Notes under the pieces: generated by a model
Told to the model about the DNA's origin: nothing
Seen by the model: only the letters and a program-made list of their open reading frames with translations
Databases searched by the model: none
In this document: one piece after another, positions 3,938 through 45,192 of the stretch
Layout: every line of letters begins with the position of its first letter
Numbering within the stretch: the first letter of the stretch is position 1
Translations under genes and position numbers: made by a program
From: a virus
IMG/VR virus record: IMGVR_UViG_3300045988_066710
Reading direction: 5' to 3' (one strand)
Length of the DNA: 64,000 nt

Positions 3938-3949
3938 AATAAGTAATTT

Positions 3950-4162
3950 ATGGAAGATATTAATGCAGTAGTAACCTCATCTGGTGTATCACTTGAAGAA
4001 GTCTTAACTAAAGAAGTAGTTAAGGCGCTCAATGAAGAAGCTTCCATCTATATGAATTATGAAATCCCAGAAGTAAAGCTTGCTGGCAATCCTCCTAGTG
4101 GTAAAGAAAATCGCAGAACTAGAAGAAGGTCAGAACTTAGAAAAAAGAAAGGCAGATTATGA
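3950..4162 (+). CDS. hypothetical small protein with basic C-terminal tail
   Basis: 70-aa ORF whose C-terminus is KENRRTRRRSELRKKKGRL. The stop overlaps the next start (ATGA). Confidence 0.5.
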   Translation: MEDINAVVTSSGVSLEEVLTKEVVKALNEEASIYMNYEIPEVKLAGNPPSGKENRRTRRRSELRKKKGRL

Positions 4163-4518
4163 TAGACGATGATAAGATTATAAAAGCTGCTAGTGAGCTT
4201 TGTGATTATGGTTCAATTCATGATAGTGAATATAGAATAGAAGGATTTAAAAAATGTGCTAAATGGATGCAAGAAGAGTTCTTAAAGGATTTGTGGCATC
4301 CTGCTAGCGAAATGCCTGATAAAAATAGAACATGCTTGGTAAGAGTTGTTTATCATCCTAATCATGGGATGTTTCAAGATGAAGAAAGAATAGAACAATC
4401 ATCTTTTCACGATTTTGGATGGTATGATTACGATTTCAAATATATTGGAACTAATTATGATATTATTAGCTGGCTCTATATTAGTGATTTACTTCCAAAG
4501 GAAGGAGGTGAACAATGA
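4159..4518 (+). CDS. hypothetical protein, DUF551-like pattern
   Basis: 119-aa ORF. The segment W-H-P-A-S-E-M-P-D-x5-C-L-V-R-V resembles the W...(L/M)P...VLV core of phage DUF551 domains. This is recalled from memory and was not searched. Confidence 0.5.
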   Translation: MIDDDKIIKAASELCDYGSIHDSEYRIEGFKKCAKWMQEEFLKDLWHPASEMPDKNRTCLVRVVYHPNHGMFQDEERIEQSSFHDFGWYDYDFKYIGTNYDIISWLYISDLLPKEGGEQ

Positions 4519-4772
4519 ATGCATTAGCAATTATTGGTTTTATTATAGTTACTATTGTAATAGTACTTTGTATAATTGAAATAAAAGAAGAAGGTAATAT
4601 TGTTCTATCTAAAGTGCTTTTAATTATTGCAATTATCGGGTTGTTATTTATTATAGTATCATATATAAGCAATGCTCCTACTGCCTTAGATGTATATAAA
4701 GGTAAGACAGAATTAAGAATTACTTATGAAGGTAAAACTCCTGTAGATTCGGTTGTAATTTATAAGAAATGA
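4515..4772 (+). CDS. small membrane protein (2 predicted TM helices)
   Basis: 85-aa ORF with two long hydrophobic runs (ALAIIGFIIVTIVIVLCII and VLLIIAIIGLLFIIVSYI). Confidence 0.6.
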   Translation: MNALAIIGFIIVTIVIVLCIIEIKEEGNIVLSKVLLIIAIIGLLFIIVSYISNAPTALDVYKGKTELRITYEGKTPVDSVVIYKK

Positions 4773-4780
4773 AATGAGTA

Positions 4781-4942
4781 ATGGAAATATTTACATTTGA
4801 CATTATGCTTAATGGAAGATTTATTTGTACTTTAAAATATAAATATAATTCAATCTTCCCTATTGATTTAGAAGAATTAGAAAAATTTATCTTAAATAAG
4901 AGACCTACTCTTAAAGGTAAAGATTTTAGAATTAAATTTTAA
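4781..4942 (+). CDS. hypothetical small protein (53 aa, below ORF-track cutoff)
   Basis: Hand translation gives MEIFTFDIMLNGRFICTLKYKYNSIFPIDLEELEKFILNKRPTLKGKDFRIKF. It fills an otherwise empty inter-ORF gap on the operon strand. Confidence 0.4.
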   Translation: MEIFTFDIMLNGRFICTLKYKYNSIFPIDLEELEKFILNKRPTLKGKDFRIKF

Positions 4943-4947
4943 CAATT

Positions 4948-5112
4948 ATGAAAGTATTTAAATTATGTATTATTCTTGTTGCTTACTTATTAATAGGAGT
5001 ATTAGAAATATATAGTTACTATTTATTTAAAAATGATGCTATAGGAATCTTTACATTCTTTACTCTTCTTGGTTTTATATTAACATTTGGAATAGAAGTA
5101 TTAAATGAGTAG
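4948..5112 (+). CDS. small membrane protein (54 aa, below ORF-track cutoff)
   Basis: Hand translation gives MKVFKLCIILVAYLLIGVLEIYSYYLFKNDAIGIFTFFTLLGFILTFGIEVLNE, with two hydrophobic segments. Confidence 0.45.
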   Translation: MKVFKLCIILVAYLLIGVLEIYSYYLFKNDAIGIFTFFTLLGFILTFGIEVLNE

Positions 5113-5365
5113 AAAATTAATGAGTTTATTTTCAATACTAAATATGCAGTCTGCACTGGATTATCAAATGGGTGATGATTTTCCTTTTGGTTCTCCATGT
5201 ATTAGATTCAATGTACCAAAAGGAAATGTTCCTTCTGATAAACAAAAGTGTCAGCCAAAAGCACAACATGAGTTTATTATTAAAGGTATGAAGATTACAG
5301 CAGCTTCTAAGAAAGATGCTATTAAAAAGTATAATCATAGAAAGAATCAAGCAAATACCTTTTAA
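5105..5365 (+). CDS. hypothetical protein
   Basis: 86-aa ORF that overlaps the next ORF by 50 nt in another frame. Confidence 0.45.
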   Translation: MSRKLMSLFSILNMQSALDYQMGDDFPFGSPCIRFNVPKGNVPSDKQKCQPKAQHEFIIKGMKITAASKKDAIKKYNHRKNQANTF

Positions 5366-17915: not shown

Positions 17916-18938
17916 ATGATTAGCAATGGATATACTTCAATAACTTTAAAAGATATATTAAACAAAGTAGATGAGGGTCAAATACTTAATTTCTACTTTG
18001 GTATTACACAAGTTCCTTTTAGAATGAATAGCCCTTTAAGGAATGATTCTAAACCTTCATTTGGATTATATTCAAGTGATGGTATACATATACATTATAA
18101 AGACTTTGCAACAGGAGAACAAGGGTCTTTATTTGATTTACTTATGCAAATCTACAATATTAGTTTTATAGAACTAGTAGATAAGATAAGTAAAGATATG
18201 AATATTAATACTAAGCAGATTAATATCTCTAAATCTCAAATTAAACATAACTCAGCTACAATAAGTAGTAGTCAAATCAGACTAGAGGTTAAAACTAGAG
18301 AATGGAGAAATTATGATGTTGAGTATTGGGAATCTTATGGATGTAATATAAATCTATTAAAGTATGTTGAAGTATATCCTATTAGTCATAAAATTATATA
18401 TAAAGATAATAAAAGATATACCTTTGCTTGTGATAAACTAGCATATTGTTATATTGAAAGAAAAGAAGGGAATATCACCAAGAAAATTTATCAACCCTAT
18501 AATAAAAATGGTTACAAATGGACATCTTCCAATGACAAGAGTGTTATTGGTTTGTGGTCTAAAATTCCAGAGACAGGAGATACATTGCTTATATGTTCAT
18601 CATTGAAAGATAGTATCTGTCTATGGTCTAATGTTAATATACCCTGTATATATGTTCAATCAGAAAATACAGAGTTAAGTGATTCTGCAATTAATTGTTT
18701 ACAAAAAAGATATAATCATATTTATATAGCATTTGATGGAGATTCAGCAGGTGAAATAGATGCCTATAATCTTAGATTAAAAACAGGTTTTGAGATAATT
18801 CATTGTCCTTTAATTGATAAGGCAAAAGATTATTCAGATATATATCATTATTTTGGTAAAAAAAGACTTATTGAAGAATTTAATAATGCTTTTAATAAGA
18901 CTAAAGCACCAGATATGGATGATGATTTACCTTTTTGA
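17916..18938 (+). CDS. DnaG-like (TOPRIM) DNA primase with acidic C-terminal tip
   Basis: 340-aa ORF. N-terminal SPLRNDSKPSFGLY resembles the CPFHxEKTPSF primase zinc-finger segment but lacks the Cys residues. The TOPRIM-like region is LLICSSLKDSICLW ... IYIAFDGDSAGE (DxD). It ends in PDMDDDLPF. Confidence 0.7.
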   Translation: MISNGYTSITLKDILNKVDEGQILNFYFGITQVPFRMNSPLRNDSKPSFGLYSSDGIHIHYKDFATGEQGSLFDLLMQIYNISFIELVDKISKDMNINTKQINISKSQIKHNSATISSSQIRLEVKTREWRNYDVEYWESYGCNINLLKYVEVYPISHKIIYKDNKRYTFACDKLAYCYIERKEGNITKKIYQPYNKNGYKWTSSNDKSVIGLWSKIPETGDTLLICSSLKDSICLWSNVNIPCIYVQSENTELSDSAINCLQKRYNHIYIAFDGDSAGEIDAYNLRLKTGFEIIHCPLIDKAKDYSDIYHYFGKKRLIEEFNNAFNKTKAPDMDDDLPF

Positions 18939-18984: not shown

Positions 18985-19698
18985 ATGGAAAAAAGAAAGA
19001 TTACAGTGATTCCTACAAAGACTCACAAGACACAAGTTATTGAAAGTGCAGCAACAACATTGGCAGAACTCAAAGCAGACCTTACTAAGGCAGGTATTAA
19101 TTATACTGATTGTACATTCTTTGAGGGTCTTACTAAGATTGAATTGAAGAATGATGCTGCTATTCTTCCACATGATGTTCCTTATAAGGGAACTACTACT
19201 AATAACTTAGTATTTATGATTACTAATGCTTCAAAGAAGATTAGAAGTGGAGCAAAGCTTGATAGAAAGGCTATCATTGAGGAGATTAAGAGTAAGAATC
19301 TTACAGAAGTAGTTAAGAAGACTTATGGTAAGAATTATACTAACTGTAAGACAGAAGATTTGCAGAAGATTCTTAACAAAGAAGCAGCTTCTACAACAGC
19401 AGATGCTTCAGCTCCTACAGCTAAAGCAGCTCCTGCAAAGAAGGAAGCTCCTAGTAAGCCTGTAATGAAGGCTGATGACCCTAGTAACTATGTTACTAAA
19501 GCAGAACTTAAGAAAGTTATTGAAAGTCTTTTGGAAGAAATGGAGAATGCAGGTATGGATTATTCTGATGATATTGATATTGATAATATTGCTATTATTG
19601 GTAATGTCACTTCAGATACTTCAAATGCTTCAAAGGAAGAGGAATCAGATTCTCCATATTCATCAAATGAACTTGATGATATGTTTAAAGATATGTAA
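18985..19698 (+). CDS. hypothetical protein: possible N-terminal ubiquitin-like (beta-grasp) domain + HeH/SAP-like helix pair + A/P/K linker + acidic tail
   Basis: 237-aa ORF. Residues about 5-89 (KITVIPTKTHKTQVIESAATTLAELKADLTKAGINYTDCTFFEGLTKIELKNDAAILPHDV...NNLVFMITNASKKIRSG) thread by eye onto the ubiquitin strand/helix pattern. NLTEVVKKTYGKNYTNCKTEDLQKIL is HeH-like. The linker is ASAPTAKAAPAKKEAPSKP and the C-terminus is acidic. Confidence 0.55.
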   Translation: MEKRKITVIPTKTHKTQVIESAATTLAELKADLTKAGINYTDCTFFEGLTKIELKNDAAILPHDVPYKGTTTNNLVFMITNASKKIRSGAKLDRKAIIEEIKSKNLTEVVKKTYGKNYTNCKTEDLQKILNKEAASTTADASAPTAKAAPAKKEAPSKPVMKADDPSNYVTKAELKKVIESLLEEMENAGMDYSDDIDIDNIAIIGNVTSDTSNASKEEESDSPYSSNELDDMFKDM

Positions 19699-19715
19699 TT
19701 TATAAAAAATCTAAT

Positions 19716-19756
19716 AGGGAGTAAGTATAGTAATATATTTGCTCCCTTCTTTTTTA
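19716..19756 (+). terminator. rho-independent terminator (14-bp stem, GTAA loop)
   Basis: agggagtaagtata-GTAA-tatatttgctccct (19716-19747) pairs throughout (two G-U pairs), followed by TCTTTTTTAT. The loop-proximal 3' arm also contains TATATTTG, a possible -7 promoter box. Confidence 0.7.
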
Positions 19757-19762
19757 TTACTT

Positions 19763-20878
19763 ATGGATATAAAAGAACAAATAAGAAATAAGTATTATAC
19801 TCCTACAGAAGAAGCTCTTAAAGTATATGAAATATTTAAAAGTTTCTTTGGTGAAACTAAAGTAGACTTTCAAGTAGATAAAGATTTTAAAGATGCTGTA
19901 GAAACTTTAATAGCAGAAGATGAAAACTTGGAAGATACTTTAAACCTTCCTTTACTTCCATTATGTGAATTTTCATATATTATATTAGTTCATTTTCCAA
20001 ATGTAACTATTACTAATGAAAAAGATAATAATGTAGATATTCATGATTTATATGTTAAAGTACCACTTGATTATACAGGAAAACAAGCTAAAAGATTTGA
20101 AATGATTGTTACTACTTTCACTAAAGTTTTATATGAAAGTCATTATACACATTCCCATTTACCTTCAGGTTCTTTAAGTCATGGTAAAGCTTATTTTAAT
20201 AGACCTTGTTTAGGAGAAGGTCCTATTGGAGACACTTGTAATATTCTTGGAGATGAAAATAATGAAAATATATGGAAATTATTCTGTGTGGAATTAGCTA
20301 GATATGTTACAGTAGAATCTATAGCAGGAGTTCCTTATTACAGAATGGAAAATATTGGTAGAAATAATAGTAATAAAGAAATAATTCTTTCAGATACTTG
20401 TTATACAGTCTCTTCAGAAATTTCATTTATTATAAAAGAAGCCATACGTAATCTTATAAATAGAAAAGTATTTACTTTTAAATATGTAAATAATACTTAT
20501 AGCTTTGCTGCTAATGATGCTTCTTTAATTAGATTAATAAGCAATGAGTTTATAACAATTTATAATAAAAGATTTAATAATAAAGAACTTTCTACAAATT
20601 TAAATGAATTAATAAGAGCTAAAATTCTTATAAAAGCAGTTTTTTATAAAGGATGTTTTACTGAAGAAGATAGTAATAGACACAGTTCTTGTAGTCCTAG
20701 TACTGATGTCTTATTTACATTTAAGAATATACCTGTTAAAATGAAGATTATAGATACTGATACTACTATTGAACCTGTATATATTCTTAATGTAAAATAT
20801 ATTAATGTGGCAATACGAAATATATTAGAATTTATAAATTACAATTATGGACAAGAATATATTAAAGAAACAAGATAA
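19763..20878 (+). CDS. hypothetical protein, possible divergent E2/UBC-like protein (speculative)
   Basis: ATG 19763 was chosen because the track's upstream TTG start lies inside the terminator. This gives 371 aa. A beta-rich segment (SYIILVHFPNVTITNE, IHDLYVKVPLDY, RFEMIVTTF) is followed by HSHLPSG-x11-RPCLGEGP, reminiscent of the E2 HPN...G.xCL active-site loop. Confidence 0.6.
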   Translation: MDIKEQIRNKYYTPTEEALKVYEIFKSFFGETKVDFQVDKDFKDAVETLIAEDENLEDTLNLPLLPLCEFSYIILVHFPNVTITNEKDNNVDIHDLYVKVPLDYTGKQAKRFEMIVTTFTKVLYESHYTHSHLPSGSLSHGKAYFNRPCLGEGPIGDTCNILGDENNENIWKLFCVELARYVTVESIAGVPYYRMENIGRNNSNKEIILSDTCYTVSSEISFIIKEAIRNLINRKVFTFKYVNNTYSFAANDASLIRLISNEFITIYNKRFNNKELSTNLNELIRAKILIKAVFYKGCFTEEDSNRHSSCSPSTDVLFTFKNIPVKMKIIDTDTTIEPVYILNVKYINVAIRNILEFINYNYGQEYIKETR

Positions 20879-21983
20879 TACATATAAGTTAATTATTACT
20901 CCAGAACTAGAAGAAAAGATTAGATTCTTGTGTGCTAGATTTCCTAATAATGAATATAGTGGAGTATTATTCTATGATTATACTGGTAGATTTGAAGATA
21001 ATTCTTTAGTATTAACTGCTAAAGATTTCTGTCTTATGGATTATGGTTCTGCTACTTATACTGAGTTTGATAAGAGTGCAGAAATCTGTAATTATATGAT
21101 AGAACATGATTTATTAGAATGTCAGCAAGGTTTAATGCATTCACATGACCAGATGTCAACGTTTTTCAGTGGAACTGACCTTGGAACTCTTCAAGAAGAA
21201 GGTTCTGATATGAATAATTTCTTATCTTTAATTGTAAATAATGCTGGTCAATATACTGCGGCAATTACAAGAAAAGTTAAACATATTCCTCATGTAACAG
21301 AAGTACTTGAATATGAGTTCTTTGGTGAAGAAACTATTAATATAGGTAATGATGAATATGATGCTATAGAATCTTATGAAATAGAATATTTCTTCTTGAA
21401 TATTGAAAAGCCTACTGTAAATATTGGTTATACAGACCTATTTAATAGAATTGAAGAAATTAGTAAGGATAAGACTAAAATTACAAATATTAGTAGAGAA
21501 CCTCGTGCTAATCTTATTGTTGACTCTACTTTAAAGGCAACACCTTTATATAAGGAAACAAATATACCTTTCTCTAAGGCTAATACTGCTGTTCAAGCAG
21601 GAGTAGATACAGATGAATCTATTGATTATAATAAGTATAAATTTAATGAAACAGACTTAAATAATATTGTTAAACAATTACTTATAGGTAGTCCTATATT
21701 TACTCCAAAAGACCTCAATGAATGGGTTCAAAAAATGCCTACAGTATTTTCTAAGAGATTTGGAGAAGGACAAAAAGGTTTAGCGAATTATAGAGCTTTT
21801 ATTGGTTATTTTGTAGAATTTCTTGTAACAGAAGCCTTTGATGATAATTTAGCAGAAGAAGGTTATCTTGAAGATTCACAAATGGCTATATGTGCTTATG
21901 GTGTATTACAGAAATTACATACATTTAAAACTAATTCCTTTATTGAAGTTATAGAGGATGAAATAGAACGTTTTATTATTTAA
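20847..21983 (+). CDS. JAMM/MPN (JAB) metalloprotease-domain protein with ~230-aa C-terminal extension
   Basis: 378-aa ORF with a complete JAMM signature: E36 (NNEYSGVLF) ... H98-S-H100-x7-S108-x2-D111 (HSHDQMSTFFSGTD, nt 21138-21179). Confidence 0.8.
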   Translation: MDKNILKKQDNTYKLIITPELEEKIRFLCARFPNNEYSGVLFYDYTGRFEDNSLVLTAKDFCLMDYGSATYTEFDKSAEICNYMIEHDLLECQQGLMHSHDQMSTFFSGTDLGTLQEEGSDMNNFLSLIVNNAGQYTAAITRKVKHIPHVTEVLEYEFFGEETINIGNDEYDAIESYEIEYFFLNIEKPTVNIGYTDLFNRIEEISKDKTKITNISREPRANLIVDSTLKATPLYKETNIPFSKANTAVQAGVDTDESIDYNKYKFNETDLNNIVKQLLIGSPIFTPKDLNEWVQKMPTVFSKRFGEGQKGLANYRAFIGYFVEFLVTEAFDDNLAEEGYLEDSQMAICAYGVLQKLHTFKTNSFIEVIEDEIERFII

Positions 21984-21987
21984 AATT

Positions 21988-22938
21988 ATGAATGAAGAAT
22001 CAACTATAACTCCACCTTTGGAGGTTAATATGGAACAAATAGTAAATACTACAGCTAATGTTCCAGAAGTTGCTATTGCTCCTTTAGAGATAACAGAAAG
22101 AGAAACAACATCAATATTAGAACCTGAAGAAGTAGTAGAAGAAGAATCAGAATCTATATTATCAGAAGAAGATGAAGCTTTTTTGAATGAAGTTATTGAA
22201 AACCAACATCAGGAAATTCCTCTTATAAGTGAAGATTATCATGATGAAACTGCTAGATTTTCAGGAGCAGAATGGTTTAATAAAATTAAAGAGAAAATTA
22301 TTATTGTAGGAGGTGCAGGAGGTATTTCTTCAAATGCTATATTTCAATTAGCTAGAATACACCCTAAGAGTATTTATATCTTTGATAATGATAAAGTTGA
22401 GGAAGTTAATCTTGCTGGACAAATGTTTGGTATCAAGGATATAGATAAATATAAAGTGGATGCCATAGCAGAAACTGTTAACCATTATAGTAAATATACT
22501 GATGTGTTTGCTATGCGAGAATTATATACTAGTAATAGTTTTACTTCTGATATTATGATTTGTGGCTTTGATAATATGGAAGCTAGAAAGGTATTCTTTA
22601 ATAACTGGAAAAAACATGTAGAATTGCAGAAAGATAAATCTAAATGTCTATATATTGATGCCCGATTGTCATTTGATACTTTACAAATACTCACTATTGT
22701 AGGTACAGATACATATAATCAGGATAGATATGAAAAAGAATTCTTATTTTCTGATGAAGAAGCAGATGAAACTGTATGTAGTTTAAAACAAACTACTTTT
22801 ATGGCATGCATGATAGCTTCTTTTATTGTAAATAATGTAGTTAATTTCTGTGCTAATGAAATTGTTCCTATGATAAAGCAATTACCTTTCTTTATAGAAT
22901 ATGATTGTAATATGATGTACTTAAAAGAAGAAGATTAA
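21988..22938 (+). CDS. ThiF/MoeB/E1-like adenylyltransferase-domain protein with acidic N-terminal extension
   Basis: 316-aa ORF containing IIIVGGAGGISSNAIFQLA (Rossmann, nt about 22306-22326), IFDNDKVEEVNLAGQ (E1 D-x-D ... NLxRQ block, with Arg replaced by Gly), ICGFDNMEARK, and CSLKQTTFMACMIASFIVNN. The first ~95 aa are acidic and low-complexity. Confidence 0.75.
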   Translation: MNEESTITPPLEVNMEQIVNTTANVPEVAIAPLEITERETTSILEPEEVVEEESESILSEEDEAFLNEVIENQHQEIPLISEDYHDETARFSGAEWFNKIKEKIIIVGGAGGISSNAIFQLARIHPKSIYIFDNDKVEEVNLAGQMFGIKDIDKYKVDAIAETVNHYSKYTDVFAMRELYTSNSFTSDIMICGFDNMEARKVFFNNWKKHVELQKDKSKCLYIDARLSFDTLQILTIVGTDTYNQDRYEKEFLFSDEEADETVCSLKQTTFMACMIASFIVNNVVNFCANEIVPMIKQLPFFIEYDCNMMYLKEED

Positions 22939-23606
22939 TGATAAGTGAAAATATTAAAAATAATATAAATAGCTTTCTTGGTGTTACGTCAGCCTCTCTC
23001 TGTTCAACAGGTATACCTTTATTAGGAACAGAGAATAATCAATTCTCTCTATATATGACAAATCATATATTTAATGGTAAGATTACAGAGATTCCTATTT
23101 ATAATTCTTTATCTTCGAGAGGAATAATTCCACTATTTACTTTTTCTTCTACTAGTATAAATGAAAGAAAAACTTTTGGTCCTCTCTTAAAAGAGTTAAG
23201 TTTTACTAGAGGAGCAGGAGCATTAAATAGAGTTAGAGATAAAGATGGTAATCTTTATTATGGAATGAGAGGTTTAATACTTAATAGTAATTTAGAGCCA
23301 TTAGTATTATGTACTATTAGACCTCCTAGAACATCATCAGCTACCACAGAACTTATACTTAGAGTAAGTCCTAAAGTTTTTAATAGTGATAATGTTGTAT
23401 GTAAAGGTATTCAAAAGTATCTTATTGAATATTGTAGTACTGTCTCTAGATATTTTTCTATAGTAAGTGGTTTTACTACTATGACAGTTATCATTAACAA
23501 TGATATTGATAAGTTTATAAGACATGCCAAGGCTCCTACCAATATTAATGTTAATGAGGAAATACAACAGCTTCTTGTAGATAATATAGATAAATTATGT
23601 CTTTAG
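22938..23606 (+). CDS. hypothetical protein (fourth gene of the JAB/E1 cluster)
   Basis: 222-aa ORF. Its start overlaps the E1-like stop (TAATG) and its stop overlaps the UDG-like start. No motif was recognised. Confidence 0.6.
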   Translation: MISENIKNNINSFLGVTSASLCSTGIPLLGTENNQFSLYMTNHIFNGKITEIPIYNSLSSRGIIPLFTFSSTSINERKTFGPLLKELSFTRGAGALNRVRDKDGNLYYGMRGLILNSNLEPLVLCTIRPPRTSSATTELILRVSPKVFNSDNVVCKGIQKYLIEYCSTVSRYFSIVSGFTTMTVIINNDIDKFIRHAKAPTNINVNEEIQQLLVDNIDKLCL

Positions 23607-24202
23607 AGGAATATTTTGGAGATTGGTTAAAAGTAATAGATAAGAAAGTATTATATGAGACAATTAATACACTTAATTCTAGCAATACTGTTAATTTGTG
23701 TCCTAATTATAATGACATCTTTAATTGCTTTAAAGCTTGTAAATTATCTAAATTAAAGGTAGTTATATTAGGTTTAAGTCCTTATCCACAATTAGGTAAG
23801 GCTACTGGAATTGCTTTTGGTAACAATATAAAAACACTTGATAAAGATCTATCACCATCCTTACAAGTTATAAAAGAATCAGTTATCAATTATGAAATTC
23901 CACAAAATAGTAGTATCTTTGACCCCAGTTTTGAAGATTGGGAGAAGCAAGGAGTATTAATGTTGAATTGTGCATTGACATGTAAAGCAGGTCTCCCTAG
24001 TTCTCATTTAGGACTATGGAGACCTTTTATATCTAAACTAATATATAATATGTCTAGATATATGACTGCTTGTGTATATGTATTATTTGGTGAAGAAGCT
24101 AAAACTTTTGAACCTTATATCTCTCAATATAATTATGTAATTAAAGAAAAACATCCTTCATATTATGCTAGGAATCATAAGAAACTTAGATATAATTTGT
24201 AG
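23597..24202 (+). CDS. family-1-like uracil-DNA glycosylase homolog with non-canonical active-site motif
   Basis: 201-aa ORF. [22 protein letters not shown] aligns to Ung [33 protein letters not shown] to GVLLLNTVLTV, and EKHPSYYA to APHPSPLSA. The catalytic Asp of GQDPY is Ser here. Confidence 0.75.
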   Translation: [201 protein letters not shown]

Positions 24203-30164: not shown

Positions 30165-30652
30165 TGATTTATATTGGTATTAGTATTATTGTTCTTTTAG
30201 CAGTTATGGGAGCATACATTATGTATGCTGCCTATGCTAAAGGTAAAGATGTAATGTCTTTTAAACAATCAATAGAATTATGTGATCTACCAATAATAAC
30301 ATTCTATATTGGAGAAAAGAAATTAAACTTTATATTAGATACAGGCTGTATACAATCTATGCTTGATGCTGATATTATAGATAAATATAAATTAAATGTT
30401 TCCTATATTGGAAAAAACTTTGAAGTATGGGGAGCTAACGGTAAATGTTCTACAGATAAAATGGGTGTTTTAGGTCTTTATTATAATAATAAGAAATTTG
30501 AAGAAACATTTGTTTGTAGTAGTACAATTAAACATACATTTAGTTGGCTTAAGCAGAATAAAGGTGTAATAGTACATGGTTTATTAGGTTCTAATTTCTT
30601 TAATACATATAAATATATATTAGATTTTAATAAATTAGAATTTAAAAGATGA
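30164..30652 (+). CDS. membrane-anchored retropepsin-like aspartic protease
   Basis: 162-aa ORF with an N-terminal TM helix (IYIGISIIVLLAVMGAYIMYAAYA), the catalytic LNFILDTGCIQSML (D-T-G) and the downstream VHGLLGSNFF (hhGxDFL-like) motif of clan AA retropepsins. Confidence 0.65.
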   Translation: MIYIGISIIVLLAVMGAYIMYAAYAKGKDVMSFKQSIELCDLPIITFYIGEKKLNFILDTGCIQSMLDADIIDKYKLNVSYIGKNFEVWGANGKCSTDKMGVLGLYYNNKKFEETFVCSSTIKHTFSWLKQNKGVIVHGLLGSNFFNTYKYILDFNKLEFKR

Positions 30653-32526
30653 TAATTAAGGATTTAATAGTTCAAGTATATGATATAGAAATATTTCCTA
30701 ACTGTTTTAGTTTGACTATTAAAAATACTGAAACAAAAGAATTTCAATTTTTTGAGTTATCTAATAGAAAGAATAATTTAGTTGATTTAGTGCCTCTTTT
30801 TCTTGATAAAAGATATATATTTTGTGGATATAATAATATCCACTATGATAATCCAATAGTTAATTTTATAATTGAATATAAAGAAACATTAAAAAAGAGT
30901 ACTAGGTTAGATATAGAATATAACTTATTTCAATTAAGTCAAACTATTATCAAAGGTGATTTAGAGAAATGGAAAAGATGGAAATATGCTAATAACTTTG
31001 AAACGTTAGATTTGCTTACAATGTTATTTTCACAGAAACTTAGAGTTGGTTTGAAAGAAATGCAAGTTACTATGAAATATTCTAATGTACAAGAATATGA
31101 TGGTGATTTTGAGGCTCCTATACCAGAAGAGGATATTCCAAAGATGATACAATATAATATTAATGATGTTAATTCAACTGAGGAATTACTTTATAGATGT
31201 GAAAATGATATTAAATTGAGACTTAATATTGAGGAAGAATATGGAATTAAAGCTTTAAATAAAGATGGTGTTAATCTAGGTATGGAGATTCTTAAAACTA
31301 AATATCTAGAGAAAACACATAAAACTTGGAATGATATAAAAGATTTAAGAAGTCCTTGTGATAAGATAGCATTAAATGAAATTATTCTTCCTTTTATTAA
31401 GTTTGATAATCCTATACTAAAAGATTTACTTAATGAAATGAAACAACAAGTTGTTTCTCCTGATAGAAAAGGTTATAATAAACATTTTCTTATGGATAAT
31501 CTTGAGTATTCTGTTGGAGTAGGAGGTATTCATTCTGTTAATAAACCTAGTATATTTATTGCCAAAGAAGATGAAGTAATTTCAGATGTGGATGTTGCCT
31601 CATTGTATCCAAGTCTTATTATTGAATATGGCTTTTATCCTCCTCATCTTGGTAAAGAATTTCTTGAAGTATATAAAGGAATTAAAGATGAAAGAATTGA
31701 AGCTAAACATAATGGTAATAAGCTTAAGAACTTAACATTAAAGTTAAGTATTAATGGATTAAGTGGTAATCTTCAATCAGAGTTTTCTTGGTGTTATTCT
31801 CCTAAGACAGTAATGAGAATTAGAATTAATGGACAGCTTTTATTATTAATGTTAGCTGAAAAGTTAATATCAATAGGTTGCCAGATTATTCAAGCAAATA
31901 CTGATGGTTTATTTGTTCTTAGAAAAAAGAAAGATGAACAGAAATTTAAGGATGTATGTAAATGGTGGGAAAATCTTACTAGACTAGAACTTGAAGAAGA
32001 TAGATTTGAAAGATTTTATCAATTTGCTATTAATGATTATTTAGGTGTTATTGAAGGATATAAAGATAGTAAAAATCCTAAATTATTAAAGAAAAAAGGT
32101 TTATTTATTGATAGTGTAACTTTAGGTAAAGGTATGCAACCAATGATTATTCCTAAAGCAATTAATGCTAATTTAGCTGATAATATACCTGTAGAAGAAA
32201 CTATTAGAAATTGTAAGGATATTAATGAATTTATTACATATCAAAAAGTAGATAAAAAGTTTGCTGTACAATATATGAATAAGTTTATTACTCATATTAA
32301 TAGATATTATGTATCTACTAATGGTGGTTATCTTTATAAATGTGAAGTAGAAGGTAATAAAATAGTAAAATTTGCTAATATGCTTACAGCATCTGGAGTT
32401 ACATTATGTAATGATATTACAGCTATAAAAGAATTCCCTAAAAATATTAACTATAAATATTATATTAAAGAAGCAAATAAAATCTTAGCTAAATTGAAAA
32501 TTCAAGAACAAGGATTATTTTGGTAA
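30649..32526 (+). CDS. family B DNA polymerase with 3'-5' exonuclease domain
   Basis: 625-aa ORF with Exo I VYDIEIF, Exo II GYNNIHYDNPIV, Exo III QYNINDV, Pol A DVASLYPSLI, Pol B KLSINGLSGN and Pol C QANTDGLFV. Confidence 0.85.
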   Translation: MIIKDLIVQVYDIEIFPNCFSLTIKNTETKEFQFFELSNRKNNLVDLVPLFLDKRYIFCGYNNIHYDNPIVNFIIEYKETLKKSTRLDIEYNLFQLSQTIIKGDLEKWKRWKYANNFETLDLLTMLFSQKLRVGLKEMQVTMKYSNVQEYDGDFEAPIPEEDIPKMIQYNINDVNSTEELLYRCENDIKLRLNIEEEYGIKALNKDGVNLGMEILKTKYLEKTHKTWNDIKDLRSPCDKIALNEIILPFIKFDNPILKDLLNEMKQQVVSPDRKGYNKHFLMDNLEYSVGVGGIHSVNKPSIFIAKEDEVISDVDVASLYPSLIIEYGFYPPHLGKEFLEVYKGIKDERIEAKHNGNKLKNLTLKLSINGLSGNLQSEFSWCYSPKTVMRIRINGQLLLLMLAEKLISIGCQIIQANTDGLFVLRKKKDEQKFKDVCKWWENLTRLELEEDRFERFYQFAINDYLGVIEGYKDSKNPKLLKKKGLFIDSVTLGKGMQPMIIPKAINANLADNIPVEETIRNCKDINEFITYQKVDKKFAVQYMNKFITHINRYYVSTNGGYLYKCEVEGNKIVKFANMLTASGVTLCNDITAIKEFPKNINYKYYIKEANKILAKLKIQEQGLFW

Positions 32527-36171: not shown

Positions 36172-39100
36172 ATGGCAATACATTGTATGTTACTCACTGG
36201 AGATAATATTAGAATAGTACAGAATTTCTTAAGTGAGTTTAAAGACAAGTATGATTGTATGCAGACTTTTGATATGGTAAGGTCTATGATTAGTGCTTGG
36301 CAAAGTGCTAATTTTAAAGATGGTGAAGAACCTACAATGCCTACAAAAGATGAGATAGAGAAATTTATACAATCACAATTAAGTAAAGATAAACAAAGTT
36401 CTGTGGCTCCTGTAAGAGGAACTTATGAAGTATCTACTGCTGGAGATAAAAGATTTTCAGCTTTAAATGCTACTTTTGCTGAAGGGACTATCATTGATGG
36501 TGTAGATGTTAGTGGTAAAACCATTGAATATGTTTATCAAAACGTTATCAAAAAGAGTAGTAAAGGTAAAGCTCCTTCTCAAAAATCTAGATTAAATTTA
36601 AATCCTACAAATGTTTCTGAAATTAAAAGAGAAACTTTTAAACAAGAAGTTATTAATAAATATGGTAAACCTTTAAATTATTCTGTTGAAGAAGGTATTA
36701 TTACTTTAAATTTAGAAAAAGGAACTTTAGAATTAATACCTTTTGCAGGTTCAGTTAAAGATGATAAAGGAGCTTCAATGGGTAATAAAGATATTAATTA
36801 CTTTGTTGGAGGTTTAAAAATAGTAGAAGATTTAGCTGAAGGTTATGAGAATTATTCTTATTATGAAGGCTATTTACCTCTATGGCAAGAATGGGCTAAA
36901 CAAAATCCTGCTTTAATTAGCGAACTTAAAGCTAAGTCAGCAGGTAAAACTCTTACAGATAAATTTGCTAGAACAAAAGTAAGTCAAGCTAGAGCATTAA
37001 CTGATATTCTTAATAATTTTAATGAATCAGAATTTACTAGAAAGATAGATTCTATAGATAATCAAATTACAGATGATATGGATGAATCAGATATAGTAAA
37101 TCTGTTAGTTAAAAATGGTATTATAGAGAAAGGTTACTGGGGTATTCTTGGTAGAGAAATCATTATGGCTAATATAAATGGAATTAAAATTCCTTTTTAT
37201 AGAAGTAGTAATGGTACTAGTGGTAAGAAAGCGGGTAAATGGTATCAGTTCTTTGGCTTTGGTAATATGAATTCTTCTAGTAAAGATAATGATTGGTTTA
37301 TAAAGGGTAGTAGTAAGAATAATAATGAAATAGAAAATGGATATGGTTCTATAGATATTCAAAGGCTTACTGCTTTATTTAATAAATATCTTAACTGGAC
37401 AGGAAAGCATGATAAAAATGATATGCATAGCGTATATGATTTTACTAAAAAAGGTACAGAAGGTGGAAATCATGACTTTCTTGGTCCACAAAGAACAGAA
37501 GATATAAATACAATATTATATGGTACTAAAGATAAAGATTTAACTGGTATAAATGCCAGAAAAGCTTTAGAAGAGAGAGTTAATATGATTAAAGCTAATT
37601 CTAAAGCTTTATCTCCTGTACAGGAGAATGGAAAAATAACTCCAGTAATTACTACAGAAGCAACTCCTTATACTAAAGGATTACCTCAAAAGAATCCAAA
37701 TACTGCATATTTATTTACTGAAAATGCTCAAGCATATGTAACTTCCCTACAATTAGATGATTCTTGGATAGAAAGAGGTTATAATAAAGGTAATAGTGTA
37801 AAGACAGGAGTATCTGATGTAAGAGGTACAAATCAAGCAGGTATTAGAGCTTCTAGTTATAATACTTATGGAGCTACTAATATTAGTAGAAATGCTTTTG
37901 GTATTATAGTAAAAAAGTATCAGCAAAAACTTAGTCAATCTTCTTTTTTATCAAAAGAAGGACAATTTGAAGATATTGATTCTGATTTTGAATTATTTAA
38001 GCAATTAAACTTACATATGTTTAATAATCTAAATAATTTTAATGCAGAAAATATAGTATTACCAAATCAAATAGCATTAGGAAAGTCTGCTTTACCTCTT
38101 AGATTTACAGAATGGTTAAAAGAAGAATTAAGTAAAAGATTTAATGCTAATTTTATAATAGAAAAAAATACTAGAGCTGATTATGATGGTTATGGTATTA
38201 GAGTTATAAATACAAATATTAAAGTAGAAGAAGCTCCTATACAGGAAGATAATAAATCATATGCTGAGGATTTAGCTAGATGTGCTAGACAGATGTCTCC
38301 TATAGAAAGAAAACATAGAGTAGAAAGAATTACTAGAATGTTTTCATCTATAGTAAATAGTAAATTAAAGGATAAGTTAGCTGCTTATAATGATAAAATT
38401 CAAGCAGAAACTAATCCTAAAGTAAAGAATGATTTATTATTTGGTAGAAAGAAAATTACTAGATTCAGTGTTATTAAGTCTGAAGGTGTACAGAGTATTA
38501 TGCTGGAAGTAAGAAAAGCCTTTCAAGTATATGCTGAGGCTCCTTTAGAGGCAAAGATAGCTATAGAAAAGAAATCTATTAAAGATGCTTTAATTAATAG
38601 ACAAAAAAAGAAGGGTTATTCTATTGATGAAGAAGCTATTGATAGAAAAGCTACTATTATGGCTAAAGCAGTTGTTGAAAGAAAAGATGCAGCTTTTAAG
38701 AATGTACTTAATAACTTTCAAGTATTAGCAGAAGAAGCATTAGGAAACTTAGCATTAACTGAGGGTATTTCTGTTAACTTAAATAGTAACTTTGTACTTA
38801 ATACTCAAGAGAATAGTGATACTTTCAATGAGGATGGTAAACAAACTAATCAAGGAGATGTATTTGAGAAAGAAGAATCTTTGAAAGATGGATGGATGAC
38901 TGATGTTAGACAGGTAGCTACTTTTGATAGTCTTACTGCTAGAGTTAGACAAGCCATAGGTAATATGGTAAGATATGATTCTACAGGCAATGTTGATAGA
39001 GATGATTTAGGAGATAATATCTATCTTAATGCAGGTTATGTACATTCAGAATTAATACAGGCTCTTAGAAATATGATTAGTGCTGAAGATATGATTCCTA

Positions 39101-42075: not shown

Positions 42076-42323
42076 TGACTAAAAGTTGAGACTCGCTTTA
42101 GTAGAAATACTAATGAATAATAAATTGGGTGAATTGCTGGGAAATCCTATATGGATAATCAGCAGCCAAGCTAAACTTAGGTTAAAAGAGTTTAGAAGGT
42201 TCAGAGACTAGAAAGGTGAGCCTAACAATAATCCTTTCCACGAGTGCCCAACATCCTATATGGATGAAGATATAGTCCGTGCTTCATAGTAATATGAAGA
42301 ATTACAGTATAAACAACTGTAAG
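42076..42323 (+). ncRNA. group I self-splicing intron (ORF-less, phage IA-like architecture)
   Basis: The core elements are P aattgctgggaaa 42132-42144, Q aatcagcagcc 42157-42167, R gttcagagacta 42199-42210 and S aagatatagtcc 42267-42278. P1 has a U42075-G42090 wobble. P2 has a GAAA loop and P9 a GUAA loop. The terminal G is 42323, and the splice is in-frame. Confidence 0.85.
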
Positions 42324-45191: not shown

Positions 45192-45192
45192 T

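What the first reader, a model, noticed from the sequence alone, without database searches (positions are those of the whole stretch)
18985..23606. Phage-encoded Ubl-like / E2-like / JAMM / E1-like gene cluster with the same order as bacterial Bil-type ubiquitin-like conjugation operons
Seen directly in the sequence:
- ORF 20847-21983 carries a complete JAMM signature (Glu36, then HSH-x7-S-x2-D at nt 21138-21179).
- ORF 21988-22938 carries the ThiF/MoeB/E1 adenylation core: GGAGGISS Rossmann loop, FDNDKVEEVNLAGQ, GFDNMEARK and a Cys-containing C-terminal segment. The Arg of the canonical NLxRQ block is Gly, and a ~95-aa acidic N-terminal extension is added.

Inference:
- The gene immediately upstream (19763-20878) has a beta-meander-like segment followed by HSHLPSG-x11-RPCLGEGP. 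This resembles the HPN...Cys loop of E2/UBC enzymes.
- The gene before that (18985-19698) begins with about 85 residues whose strand/helix spacing threads onto ubiquitin and ends in KKIRSG. It then continues into an HeH/SAP-like motif, an A/P/K linker and an acidic tail. That is the form of a Ubl fusion precursor that a JAB peptidase could process.
- A strong terminator (19716-19756) lies between this Ubl-like gene and the other three, so it may be transcribed separately.
- A fifth ORF (22938-23606) is translationally coupled and has no recognisable motif.

Established context: Ubl-E2-JAB-E1 is the component set and, as I recall, the gene order of bacterial Bil antiphage operons. E1/E2 plus JAB also occur in CBASS (Cap2/Cap3) and in PRTRC cassettes.

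Finding such a set inside a phage replication module is unexpected. Possible roles are counter-defence (decoy, deconjugation or hijacking), modification of phage or host replication proteins, or a sulfur-carrier type nucleotide modification.
Basis: partly seen in the sequence, partly recalled or inferred. Interest (0 to 1): 0.9.

Follow-up and report, generated by a model that had tools for sequence, protein, structure and literature searches.

The report
Phage-encoded ubiquitin-like protein activation module
A large group of gut crAss-like phages carries, among its DNA-replication genes, its own ubiquitin-like protein plus the enzymes that trim and activate it, so these viruses probably tag proteins by a mechanism so far shown only in cells; the proposed E2 enzyme could not be confirmed.

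Summary
The five ORFs, the JAMM motif, the ThiF/E1 motifs, the terminator and the translational coupling are all present as described. Three of the four claimed parts hold.

- **Gene A, Ubl.** Residues 1-80 fold with pLDDT >92 into a beta-grasp. All top-50 PDB Foldseek hits are ubiquitin, SUMO, DIX or UBX domains. The domain ends in a flexible tail with an invariant Gly89 (Ser-Gly in 222 of 224 homologs).
- **Gene C, JAB.** It keeps E36, H98-x-H100, S108 and D111 in all 17 diverse relatives aligned.
- **Gene D, E1.** It is a minimal ThiF/UBA5-like adenylating enzyme (Pfam 1.3e-15).

In related phages gene A is split exactly after Ser-Gly by a homing endonuclease. In others it is a free-standing 89-aa protein ending SGI. 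This matches the processed pro-Ubls of bacterial Bil and Bub systems.

Ubl and E1 co-occur in the same 74 of 50,697 phage records. The A-B-C-D order survives rearrangement of the neighbours in Flavobacterium phage FpV4.

Gene B sits where Bil has its E2 and has an invariant Cys149. No sequence, profile or fold test links it to E2. It is a large, phage-restricted family of unknown fold.

The cluster is not a member of Bil, CBASS, Bub or PRTRC. I rate it a new phage-borne variant of Ubl/E1/JAB systems. Target and final chemistry are unknown.

The parts
18985..19251 (+). Gene A, residues 1-89: ubiquitin-like beta-grasp domain with a flexible tail ending K84-K-I-R-S88-G89. This is the predicted mature Ubl.
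   Evidence: AlphaFold2 gives pLDDT >92 for residues 1-80 with topology bb-a-bb..b. The top 50 Foldseek PDB hits are all ubiquitin, SUMO, DIX, UBX or TINCR, with prob 1.0 and target-normalised TM 0.55-0.72. Gly89 is invariant, and Ser-Gly occurs in 222 of 224 homologs. Stand-alone forms of 89-92 aa exist.
19252..19698 (+). Gene A, residues 90-237: the C-terminal part predicted to be released by cleavage after Gly89. It has a small three-helix region (res 94-136), a variable A/P/K linker, a helix, and an acidic tail with the conserved S-x-x-E-[IL]-D-x-M-F motif.
   Evidence: Alignment A3 and AF2 helices at pLDDT about 80. It is encoded as a separate ORF where a homing endonuclease splits the gene (L060). 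It is absent in L088/L089. No Pfam or PDB hit.
19716..19756 (+). Intrinsic-terminator-like hairpin plus U-run between gene A and gene B.
   Evidence: 14-bp stem, -20.3 kcal/mol, z -5.0, 0 of 200 shuffles as stable. A hairpin plus U-run is present at the same place in 12 of 14 diverse relatives, with different sequences.
19763..20878 (+). Gene B (371 aa): an enzyme-like protein of unknown fold at the position Bil operons give to E2. Invariant residues are N85, Y128-x-H130-S-H132, C149-x-G151, and E185-S186-x-x-G189-x-P191. Residues at 90% or more are E86, G153-P154, W171, E177 and K321.
   Evidence: 19- and 150-sequence alignments. 2320 clusters at 50% identity. No hit to any Pfam, NCBIfam, PADLOC or PDB family, nor to E2. 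AF2 pLDDT is 66.5 overall and below 50 for residues 127-152. Foldseek PDB gave nothing at E<0.1.
20847..21983 (+). Gene C (378 aa): N-terminal JAB/JAMM metallopeptidase domain (about res 1-150; E36 at 20952-20954; HSH-x7-S-x2-D at 21138-21179) plus a C-terminal domain of about 230 aa with unknown function.
   Evidence: PADLOC JAB 3e-5. Pfam Prok-JAB 0.008. Family profile against PDB: P. furiosus JAMM1 0.0036, then CSN5. All catalytic residues are invariant in 17 sequences.
21988..22938 (+). Gene D (316 aa): a variable acidic N-terminal extension (res 1-87) plus a single ThiF/MoeB/UBA5-type adenylation domain (res 88-316). Landmarks are the G-loop at 22312-22332, NLAGQ at 22408-22422, D195 at 22570-22572 and invariant C264 at 22777-22779.
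   Evidence: Pfam ThiF 1.3e-15. NCBIfam ThiF-type models up to 4e-17, all below their cut-offs. Profile against PDB: UBA5 7e-11, MccB 2e-10, then TcdA, UBA3, ThiF, Cap2, MoeB and BubCD. Conservation.
22938..23606 (+). Gene E (222 aa): a translationally coupled, fast-evolving protein of unknown function with no invariant Cys.
   Evidence: No hit in any library or in PDB. Mean column identity is 27%, and an ORF of similar size occupies the same position in all relatives.

Best explanation
The cluster is a self-contained, phage-encoded pathway for processing and activating a ubiquitin-like protein. It is built into the replication module of Steigviridae-type crAss-like phages.

**Proposed steps**
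1. Gene A is made as a pro-Ubl. It is probably produced in excess over the enzymes, because a conserved terminator follows it.
2. The JAMM peptidase (gene C) cuts the peptide bond after the invariant Gly89 (S-G|A). This frees an 89-residue beta-grasp protein and a separate C-terminal fragment that carries an acidic docking tail.
3. The ThiF/UBA5-like E1 (gene D) adenylates Gly89 with ATP.
4. The activated Ubl is then passed on. The most likely acceptor is the invariant Cys149 of gene B. B is a new enzyme family sitting at the E2 position, and C149 is the only invariant cysteine outside the E1.
5. From there the Ubl goes to lysines of phage or host proteins. The JAMM enzyme could also reverse the modification.

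**Status of each step**
- Shown here: the folds and families of A (N-domain), C and D; the invariant residues; the natural split and stand-alone forms; the co-occurrence and conserved order.
- Inferred: cleavage, adenylation, the role of B, protein conjugation, and the targets.
For: - **Beta-grasp fold of A.** Residues 1-80 are modelled at pLDDT >92. All 50 top PDB hits are Ubl folds.
- **C-terminal glycine.** The tail is flexible and Gly89 is invariant. Ser-Gly occurs in 222 of 224 homologs, and the next residue is Ala in 168. The experimentally mapped BilC cut in BilA is the same G|A junction, Gly97|Ala98 (PMC10557695).
- **Natural experiments at the junction.**
  - In L060, L035 and L071 an HNH homing-endonuclease gene splits A exactly after Ser-Gly. 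This gives a 91-aa Ubl (...SGKF) and a separately encoded C-fragment, and no intron was detected.
  - In L088/L089 the gene is an 89-aa Ubl (...SGI) followed directly by B-C-D-E.
  - 35 homologs carry caps of 3 residues or fewer.
- **Precedent for cleaved Ubl fusions.** BubAB is cut after a conserved Gly by its cognate JAB domain (PMC11601596).
- **JAMM catalytic residues.** All are invariant.
- **E1 core.** The adenylation residues are conserved and a Cys is invariant.
- **Co-occurrence.** The Ubl domain and the E1 are each found in 74 of 50,697 phage records, with identical organism breakdown.
- **Order.** A-B-C-D is kept in FpV4, although UDG has moved to the other side.
- **Gene order versus Bil.** Ubl-X-JAB-E1 equals Ubl-E2-DUB-E1 of Bil and CEHH operons.
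- **Gene B.** It has an invariant Cys and many invariant polar residues across 150 sequences that are less than 50% identical. No other protein of the cluster has an invariant Cys.
- **Terminator.** The hairpin after A is conserved in position.
Against: - No test links B to the UBC/E2 fold. Its many invariant residues (N, E, Y, H, S, H, C, E, E, S, K) look more like an elaborate active site or a metal site than a typical E2.
- The Arg of the E1 NxxRQ motif is Gly in every homolog. ATP handling may therefore differ, or the chemistry may not be classical.
- The E1 has no separate CYS domain and no UFD. Whether C264 is catalytic is unknown.
- No target, no E3 and no conjugate has been seen.
- Foldseek E-values for the small Ubl domain are modest (2.5e-3 to 1e-2).
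- Co-occurrence is partly inherited, because only two phage lineages carry the cluster and their whole replication module is collinear.
- The AF2 model of B rests on 26 sequences and is poor.
Confidence: 0.5

Rival explanations
1. Sulfur-carrier system. After JAMM trimming and adenylation, Gly89 is converted to a thiocarboxylate, as in ThiS, MoaD, CysO, QbsE, TtuB and Urm1. Gene B is then a sulfur-inserting enzyme that uses its H-x-H/Cys site to make a thio-modified nucleotide, DNA base or cofactor needed during replication.
For: - The E1 is a minimal ThiF-type domain, and its best NCBIfam matches are ThiS adenylyltransferases (4e-17 and 8.7e-14).
- JAMM trimming of a two-residue cap is known for the sulfur carrier QbsE (GG-CF). 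Cleavage of a MoaD-MoaE fusion (MoaX) is also known. Both points come from my own knowledge and were not checked here.
- B is not an E2 by any test. It has a metal-site-like H-x-H...C...E pattern.
- The cluster lies among nucleotide-metabolism and replication genes: UDG, NrdD/G and ThyX.
Against: - Sulfur carriers end in Gly-Gly. This family has Ser-Gly in 222 of 224 sequences, like the single Gly of BilA.
- No rhodanese, cysteine desulfurase or PP-loop thiolase was found in the cluster or among the 20 window ORFs scanned. That scan was not exhaustive.
- All ThiF models score far below their cut-offs.
- The gene order matches conjugation operons.
Confidence: 0.2
2. Counter-defence. The phage module interferes with host Ubl-based immunity (Bil, type II CBASS Cap2/Cap3, Bub). 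It could do this by deconjugating host Ubl or cGAS conjugates with the JAMM enzyme, or by titrating or mis-charging host enzymes with a decoy Ubl.
For: - The same component logic and order as the antiphage Bil operons.
- Iyer et al. list Bacteroides thetaiotaomicron among carriers of the Ubl/JAB/E1/E2 operon (PMC1779556), and the phages infect Bacteroides.
- Gene E evolves fast (27% column identity), as expected for a conflict interface.
Against: - The cluster is fixed, in the same place, in every Steigviridae-type genome examined (80 IMG/VR contigs and 44 isolate or reference records). It is also kept in Flavobacterium phages. It is embedded and translationally coupled in the replication operon. 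Anti-defence genes are usually variable accessory genes.
- A deconjugase alone would be enough for counter-defence.
- The phage proteins are not close to the Bil or Cap models. BilD scores 0.0038, and there are no BilA/B/C hits.
Confidence: 0.12
3. No Ubl activation at all. The beta-grasp domain is only a protein-protein interaction module of a replisome accessory protein. The JAMM and ThiF-like proteins act on something else, for example peptide or nucleotide adenylation of the MccB, PaaA or TcdA type.
For: - Many beta-grasp domains (DIX, UBX, TGS) are never conjugated, and DIX and UBX are among the top fold hits.
- MccB, PaaA and TcdA rank next to UBA5 among PDB matches of the E1.
- The canonical Arg is missing.
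- Acidic C-tails on A and on the primase suggest replisome docking.
Against: - This does not explain the invariant Gly at the end of a disordered tail.
- It does not explain the recurrent split exactly after Ser-Gly.
- It does not explain strict adjacency and co-occurrence with a catalytically intact JAMM peptidase and an E1.
Confidence: 0.1

Closest known systems
Bacterial Bil systems (type I and type II/CEHH BilABCD; Chambers et al., PMC10557695; Iyer et al. 2006 row 6d)
   Same: - The gene order is the same: Ubl, then the gene at the E2 position, then the JAB peptidase, then E1.
- The Ubl has a single C-terminal Gly that must be uncovered by the cognate JAMM peptidase. BilA is cut at Gly97|Ala98 and the phage junction is Gly89|Ala90.
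- There is no E3 gene.
   Different: - The cluster is in a phage replication operon, not in a bacterial defence island.
- The E1 is a single adenylation domain of about 230 aa, not IAD-AAD-CYS.
- The protein at the E2 position is 371 aa, has an unknown fold and shows no detectable E2 similarity.
- The Ubl is usually fused to a C-terminal part of about 150 aa.
- There is an extra fifth gene.
- PADLOC Bil models do not match, apart from a weak partial BilD hit.
Bacterial Bub (6E/DUF6527) systems (Ye et al., PMC11601596)
   Same: The Ubl is made as a fusion precursor (BubAB) and is released by the cognate JAB domain, which cuts right after a conserved Gly. The E1 is a ThiF-type adenylation domain, and BubCD is among the PDB matches of the phage E1.
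   Different: - In Bub the fusion partner is the E2 and the peptidase is fused to the E1. Here the four functions are on separate genes.
- The part fused to the phage Ubl is not E2-like. It is helical and has no invariant Cys.
- There is no DUF6527/BubE homolog.
Eukaryotic UFM1-UBA5-UFC1 pathway
   Same: The E1 is minimal and non-canonical; UBA5 is the best solved match of the phage E1 (7e-11). UFM1 also ends in a single Gly (Val-Gly) with a two-residue cap (Ser-Cys) removed before activation, and its E2 is non-canonical. The UFM1 details come from my own knowledge.
   Different: - Similarity to UBA5 covers only the Rossmann core (profile positions 99-172).
- UFM1 proteases are Cys proteases, not JAMM enzymes.
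- No homology of B to UFC1 was found.
Sulfur-carrier systems ThiS/ThiF, MoaD/MoeB, CysO/Mec+, QbsE/QbsD/QbsC
   Same: A small beta-grasp protein, a ThiF-type adenylating enzyme and, in CysO and QbsE, a JAMM peptidase acting on the carrier's C-terminus. QbsE carries a two-residue cap (my own knowledge).
   Different: - The C-terminus is Ser-Gly, not Gly-Gly.
- There is no rhodanese or desulfurase partner.
- All ThiF and MoeB equivalog models score far below their cut-offs.
- The cluster is in a phage replication context.
PRTRC cassettes and type II CBASS Cap2/Cap3
   Same: A ThiF-family protein plus a JAB-type peptidase on mobile DNA. Weak model hits: PRTRC_ThiF 1.5e-9 and Cap2-type E1-E2 models down to 6.7e-10.
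   Different: - The hits cover only the adenylation core and are below cut-off (37.6 against 144.75 bits).
- No other PRTRC protein, ParB or CD-NTase is present in the cluster.
- There is no E1-E2 fusion.
- CBASS has no separate Ubl.
Lambda-type tail assembly proteins gpI (Ubl) and gpK (JAB + NlpC/P60) (Iyer et al. 2006)
   Same: This is the only previously described pairing of a Ubl-like protein with a JAB peptidase in phages.
   Different: - It lies in the tail module.
- It has no E1.
- Its JAB architecture is different.

Membership tests
Bil (BilABCD, type I/II) | Ubl (BilA) with beta-grasp fold and a reactive C-terminal Gly exposed by the cognate peptidase | tested here: met
   The fold is supported. 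Gly89 is invariant, is followed by Ala, and capped stand-alone forms exist. Cleavage itself was not tested. No BilA model hit.
Bil (BilABCD, type I/II) | E2 (BilB) with UBC fold and catalytic Cys | tested here: inconclusive
   Invariant Cys149 is present. No E2, BilB or Cap2 hit in Pfam, PADLOC, NCBIfam or PDB, whether the query was one sequence, 19 members or a 150-sequence profile. hhalign against canonical E2s gave prob 0.06%. Foldseek found no E2, but the model is below pLDDT 50 at the motif loop.
Bil (BilABCD, type I/II) | JAB/JAMM peptidase (BilC) with E...HxH...S..D | tested here: met
   The motif is invariant. PADLOC JAB 3e-5. The best match is the generic JAB model, not a BilC model.
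Bil (BilABCD, type I/II) | Multidomain E1 (BilD) with IAD-AAD-CYS and a Zn site | tested here: not met
   There is a single adenylation domain of about 230 aa, and in FpV4 the whole protein is 225 aa. BilD model E = 0.0038 over 76 residues only. The architecture of BilD is taken from PMC10557695.
Bil (BilABCD, type I/II) | Gene order Ubl-E2-DUB-E1 | tested here: met
   The order is A-B-C(JAB)-D(E1) here and in all relatives. The Bil order is from PMC10557695.
Type II CBASS (Cap2/Cap3) | E1-E2 fusion protein plus a CD-NTase substrate | tested here: not met
   PADLOC E1-E2 models match only the adenylation core of D (res about 70-213). There is no fused E2 domain, and no CD-NTase was found among the cluster genes.
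PRTRC cassette | PRTRC ThiF family protein above cut-off, together with PRTRC proteins A-F and a ParB-like gene | tested here: not met
   TIGR03736 scores 37.6 bits against a cut-off of 144.75. No other PRTRC model hits A, B, C or E.
ThiS/ThiF-type sulfur carrier systems | Carrier ending in Gly-Gly; ThiF/MoeB equivalog; sulfur donor (rhodanese or desulfurase) | tested here: not met
   The end is Ser-Gly in 222 of 224 sequences. The best ThiF equivalog scores 62.5 bits against a cut-off of 159. No rhodanese or desulfurase domain is present in the cluster. Thiocarboxylate chemistry itself cannot be tested with these tools.
Bub (6E/DUF6527) | Ubl-E2 fusion, JAB-E1 fusion, and the DUF6527 serine protease | tested here: not met
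   The genes are separate. The C-terminal part of A is helical with no invariant Cys or Ser. No DUF6527 hit for E. Only the logic of a Ubl-fusion precursor cut after Gly is shared.
JAB/JAMM (MPN+) metallopeptidases | E, HxH, S and D zinc-site and catalytic residues on an MPN fold | tested here: met
   The fold itself was not modelled.
ThiF/MoeB/E1 adenylating superfamily | Rossmann GxGxxG loop, ribose-binding Asp, NxxRQ, Lys, and Mg-binding Asp of DxxDN | tested here: met
   Pfam ThiF scores 57.6 bits against a cut-off of 28.1. G109xGG, D133, K156, D195 and R200 are invariant. One defining residue is not met: the Arg of NxxRQ is always Gly.

The most novel reading that the evidence does not exclude
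Steigviridae-type crAss-like phages, which include cultivable crAss001 and DAC15, and Flavobacterium Fipvunavirus phages run their own ubiquitin-like protein conjugation cascade as a core part of genome replication. A pro-Ubl is cut by a viral JAMM enzyme and activated by a viral E1. It is then handed on through a previously unknown class of Cys enzyme (gene B: 2320 clusters at 50% identity, phage-restricted, no known fold) that replaces E2. The final acceptors are replisome or host proteins. This would be the first complete virus-encoded E1-dependent Ubl system in a phage, and it would define a new type of Ubl-transfer enzyme.
Probability: 0.35. Interest if true: 0.9.

Novelty: new variant of a known kind. 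Interest (0 to 1): 0.75.

Why it matters
Ubl/E1/E2/JAB systems in prokaryotes have so far been characterised as cellular antiphage defences (Bil, CBASS, probably Bub) or as sulfur-transfer pathways. In phages, only a Ubl-JAB pair in lambda-type tail assembly was known.

- **A viral system in a core operon.** Here a whole lineage of very abundant human-gut phages carries its own pro-Ubl, JAMM peptidase and E1. The genes are fixed inside the replication operon. This points to a viral use of Ubl chemistry for its own life cycle rather than to an accessory gene.
- **A new enzyme family.** Gene B has an invariant H-x-H/Cys/Glu-Ser site. It is either an unrecognisable E2 or a new kind of Ubl-dependent enzyme.
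- **Testability.** crAss001 (host B. intestinalis) and DAC15 (host B. thetaiotaomicron) are cultivable and carry the cluster as gp79-gp75 and its equivalents. The predictions can therefore be tested at the bench.
- **Annotation.** GenBank labels for these genes ('thiamine biosynthesis protein', 'metalloprotease domain', 'hypothetical protein') hide the system and could be corrected.

Tried and rejected
**Gene B as E2**
- Single-sequence and 19-member scans of Pfam, NCBIfam and PADLOC found no E2, Bil, Cap2 or PRTRC family.
- PDB profile searches with 19 and 150 sequences found nothing below E = 1.
- hhalign against an alignment of four canonical E2s gave prob 0.06%. That alignment was validated against PDB at 1e-76.
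- The AF2 model was poor (pLDDT 66.5). Foldseek against PDB found nothing. Foldseek against BFVD found only uncharacterised crAss-like homologs.

**Gene B as a second, degenerate JAB domain** (because of the shared HSH motif)
- hhalign gave prob 0.8%, and only the HSH triplet aligned. Rejected.

**The E2 hidden elsewhere**
- Gene E and the C-terminal domain of C have no invariant Cys and no hits.
- The C-terminal part of A is helical and has no invariant Cys.

**HeH/SAP assignment of A residues 94-136**
- No Pfam or PDB support. Left as a small three-helix region.

**A group I intron as the cause of the split A gene in L060**
- Rfam found nothing at gathering threshold or at E<=1, and the homing-endonuclease ORF fills the gap. 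I read it as a gene in pieces.

**Bacterial homologs of B, to get other genomic contexts**
- The genome-contig scan found only four MAG contigs that look like mis-binned phage.

**Literature**
- No paper combines crAssphage or crAss001 with ThiF.
- None combines Crassvirales or Bacteroides phage with ubiquitin-like systems.

**Not resolved**
- The Pfam accession PF27945.1, precomputed for one A homolog (P0164), is not in the local Pfam copy and could not be looked up.

Full report
**What the window is.** The window has about 28% G+C. Its + strand carries a crAss-like replication module:
- SNF2/DEAD helicase
- AAA_24 ATPase
- DnaG-type primase at 17916-18938
- the five ORFs of the finding
- UDG at 23597-24202
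- a PD-(D/E)XK nuclease
- NrdD and NrdG
- ThyX

At the DNA level the window matches known phages only over a 50-nt island, in DAC15. At the protein level its closest named relatives are Steigviridae: crAss001, DAC15, Kolpuevirus and Mahlunavirus. IMG/VR contigs 96-98% identical in the E1 protein exist.

**Check of the observation.** All five ORFs exist as stated, and every motif coordinate was verified by translation.

- **JAMM (gene C).**
  - The signature is E36 and H98-S-H100-x7-S108-x2-D111, at nt 21138-21179.
  - It is invariant in 17 homologs with a mean column identity of 46%, including Flavobacterium phage FpV4.
  - Model support is modest but consistent: PADLOC JAB 3e-5, Pfam Prok-JAB 0.008, and P. 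furiosus JAMM1 and CSN5 for the family profile.
- **E1 (gene D).**
  - It passes the Pfam ThiF cut-off (1.3e-15).
  - G109-x-G-G, D133, N141, Q145, K156, D195, R200 and C264 are invariant.
  - The best solved relatives are UBA5, MccB, PaaA, TcdA, UBA3, ThiF, Cap2, MoeB and BubCD.
  - The acidic N-terminal extension varies in length and is absent in FpV4.
- **Terminator.** It is real (-20.3 kcal/mol, z = -5). A hairpin plus U-run occupies the same A/B junction in 12 of 14 diverse relatives, with unrelated sequences.
- **Coupling.** B-C-D-E-UDG are translationally coupled.

**Gene A is a pro-ubiquitin-like protein.**
- **Fold.**
  - With a 59-sequence alignment, AlphaFold2 models residues 1-80 at pLDDT >92 with beta-grasp topology.
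  - The tail, residues 82-93, is flexible.
  - All 50 best PDB matches are ubiquitin, SUMO, DIX, UBX, TINCR or Urm1/ThiS-like domains, with prob 1.0 and target-normalised TM 0.55-0.72.
  - The E-values are modest, 2.5e-3 to 1e-2, as expected for an 80-residue domain.
- **Invariant glycine.** The domain ends K84-x-I-x-S88-G89. Gly89 is invariant. Ser-Gly occurs in 222 of 224 homologs, and Ala follows in 168.
- **Gene in pieces.**
  - In L060, and likewise in L035 and L071, an HNH homing-endonuclease gene sits exactly after the Ser-Gly codons.
  - This yields a 91-aa Ubl ending SGKF and a separately encoded C-terminal fragment.
  - Rfam finds no intron there.
- **Stand-alone form.** In L088/L089, crAss-like contigs of 93 and 107 kb, gene A is simply an 89-aa protein ending SGI. 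B, C, D (ThiF), E and UDG follow 68 nt later.
- **Short caps.** 35 homologs have caps of 3 residues or fewer: KF, IC, IY, KC, I, K, N and others.
- **Bacterial precedents.**
  - BilA is cut by BilC between Gly97 and Ala98 before E1 can act (PMC10557695).
  - BubAB is cut after a conserved Gly by the JAB domain of BubCD (PMC11601596).
- **C-terminal part.**
  - It comprises three short helices, a variable A/P/K linker, a helix and an acidic S-x-x-E-[IL]-D-x-M-F tail.
  - It has no detectable family, so the HeH/SAP label is unverified.
  - It is dispensable in some lineages.
  - One form, P0351, attaches a tail directly to the Ubl; I read that tail as motif-like.

**Linkage of the genes.**
- **Co-occurrence.** tblastn finds the E1 in 74 of 50,697 phage records and the Ubl domain in 74 records, with the same organism breakdown: 29 Bacteroides, 29 Flavobacterium, 12 uncultured and 4 others.
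- **Gene B.**
  - B is found by tblastn in the 44 closer records.
  - In FpV4 the ORF at the same position aligns at 20% identity.
  - It keeps N85, Y128, H130-S-H132, C149, G151, E185-S186, G189 and P191.
- **Collinearity.** The whole replication module is collinear in 80 IMG/VR contigs, so synteny within Steigviridae says little.
- **FpV4.** In FpV4 the neighbours are rearranged, with UDG moved upstream of A, yet A-B-C-D stay together.
- **Conservation.** The Ubl domain is the most conserved part: mean column identity is 62%, against 52% for B, 46% for C, 46% for D and 27% for E.

**Gene B is not a recognisable E2.**
- **Size and range of the family.**
  - It is large: 2320 clusters at 50% identity with E<=1e-3.
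  - It is apparently phage-restricted, since only four MAG contigs turned up in 185,579 species genomes.
- **Conserved residues.**
  - Across 150 mutually divergent members the invariant residues are N85, Y128, H130, S131, H132, C149, G151, E185, S186, G189 and P191.
  - E86, G153, P154, T158, W171, E177, K321 and N359 are conserved at 90% or more.
- **Negative tests.**
  - No library or PDB profile search gives a hit.
  - hhalign against validated canonical E2s gives prob 0.06%, and against the JAB family 0.8%.
- **Model.**
  - The AF2 model has pLDDT 66.5, and the motif loop at residues 127-152 is below 50.
  - Foldseek finds nothing in PDB and only crAss-like unknowns in BFVD.
- **What still favours an E2-like role.**
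  - It occupies the position that Bil and CEHH operons give to E2.
  - C149 is the only invariant Cys in the cluster outside the E1.
  - The predicted order of elements is a beta-meander, a long low-confidence loop carrying the Cys, then helices. This recalls the extended loop before the catalytic Cys of BilB. It is a resemblance, not a test.
- **What argues otherwise.** The number of invariant polar residues fits an elaborate catalytic or metal site at least as well.

**Most likely mechanism (confidence about 0.5).**
1. A is produced, probably in excess because of the conserved terminator.
2. The JAMM enzyme C cuts after Gly89.
3. The E1 D adenylates Gly89.
4. The Ubl is transferred, probably through Cys149 of B, to protein lysines.
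5. C may also reverse the modification.

Only the identities, the invariant residues and the natural split forms are shown here. All chemistry is inferred. I would put about 0.75 on the narrower claim that A, C and D form a functional Ubl, peptidase and E1 trio.

**Rival explanations.**
- **Sulfur-carrier pathway feeding an unknown thio-modification (about 0.2).**
  - For: the ThiF-like minimal E1, and B not being an E2.
  - Against: the Ser-Gly rather than Gly-Gly terminus, and the absence of sulfur-donor domains.
- **Counter-defence against host Bil, CBASS or Bub (about 0.12).** Against: the cluster is fixed and coupled inside the replication operon in two phage lineages.
- **A non-activated beta-grasp adaptor (about 0.1).** It does not explain the Ser-Gly junction data.

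**Comparison with known systems.**
- The cluster works like Bil (order, G|A processing, no E3) and like Bub (Ubl-fusion precursor).
- Its E1 is most like UBA5 and ThiF.
- It fails membership tests for four families:
  - Bil: the E1 architecture differs, E2 is undetected, and no Bil models hit.
  - Type II CBASS: there is no E1-E2 fusion.
  - PRTRC: 37.6 against 144.75 bits, and no other PRTRC proteins.
  - Bub: there are no fusions and no DUF6527.
- In phages, Iyer et al. (2006) described only the Ubl (gpI) and JAB (gpK) pair of tail assembly.
- Full-text searches found no paper linking crAss-like or Bacteroides phages to ThiF, JAB or Ubl systems.
- GenBank calls these genes 'thiamine biosynthesis protein', 'metalloprotease domain containing protein' and 'hypothetical protein'.

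**Verdict.** The feature is real and more than chance. I classify it as a new, phage-borne variant of prokaryotic Ubl/E1/JAB systems with a novel enzyme at the E2 position. Interest is 0.75. It would surprise specialists, and it is directly testable in the cultivable phages crAss001 and DAC15.

Noticed in passing
window 18900-18938 (end of primase 17916-18938); L003:6663-7751; window 19660-19698: The primase ends in an SSB-tail-like ...DMDDDLPF. The FpV4 ORF after ThiF ends in ...VEDLPF. Gene A ends in ...NELDDMFKDM. Several proteins of this module therefore carry acidic/aromatic C-terminal tails, which suggests a shared docking partner in the replisome.
   Followed up: partly
L060:2538-3011 (also L035, L071): An HNH homing-endonuclease ORF is inserted exactly after the Ser-Gly codons of gene A. 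The gene is split into a 91-aa Ubl and a separate C-terminal ORF, and Rfam detects no group I intron.
   Followed up: yes
L035:8691-8934: A group I intron (Rfam RF00028, 84.8 bits) lies in the region of the UDG gene of a related phage. The UDG match is displaced in several other loci as well (L018, L022, L033, L063, L080-L082).
   Followed up: no
L090:8252-9307 and L091:4631-5686: A 351-aa ORF with a faint LAGLIDADG hit sits inside the cluster between B and the ThiF gene, flanked by 112-aa and 312-aa ORFs. It may split the JAB gene.
   Followed up: no
L006 and L014, about 3722-5148: About 1.4 kb of extra DNA lies between gene B and the part of gene C that still matches. This happens in contigs otherwise 96-98% identical to the window.
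   Followed up: no
window 23597-24202; L003:1881-2630: UDG is adjacent to the cluster on either side. It is coupled after E here and in crAss001, and it lies just before A in FpV4. This could be chance synteny, or it could hint that UDG is functionally connected to the system.
   Followed up: no
P0358 (165 aa, 2-kb metagenome contig): A homolog of the Ubl domain has an insertion and is followed, after ...IASGAMSRKEA, by a BRCT domain (PF00533/PF12738). It may be a chimeric contig or a different fusion partner.
   Followed up: no
window 22549-22598: This is the only megablast match of the 4.6-kb cluster to any deposited phage: 50 nt at 96% identity to DAC15 and DAC17. It covers the DIMICGFDNMEARKVFF motif of the E1, in genes that are otherwise about 45% identical at the protein level.
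   Followed up: partly
P0164 (homolog of gene A): This homolog carries a precomputed Pfam accession, PF27945.1, which is absent from the local Pfam copy. A recent Pfam family may already cover part of gene A.
   Followed up: no
window 30649-32526 and 36172-49128: A 625-aa ORF in the replication module has no Pfam hit. Three very large + strand ORFs (1968, 965 and 1311 aa) come just before the strand switch near 49.1 kb. They were not examined.
   Followed up: no
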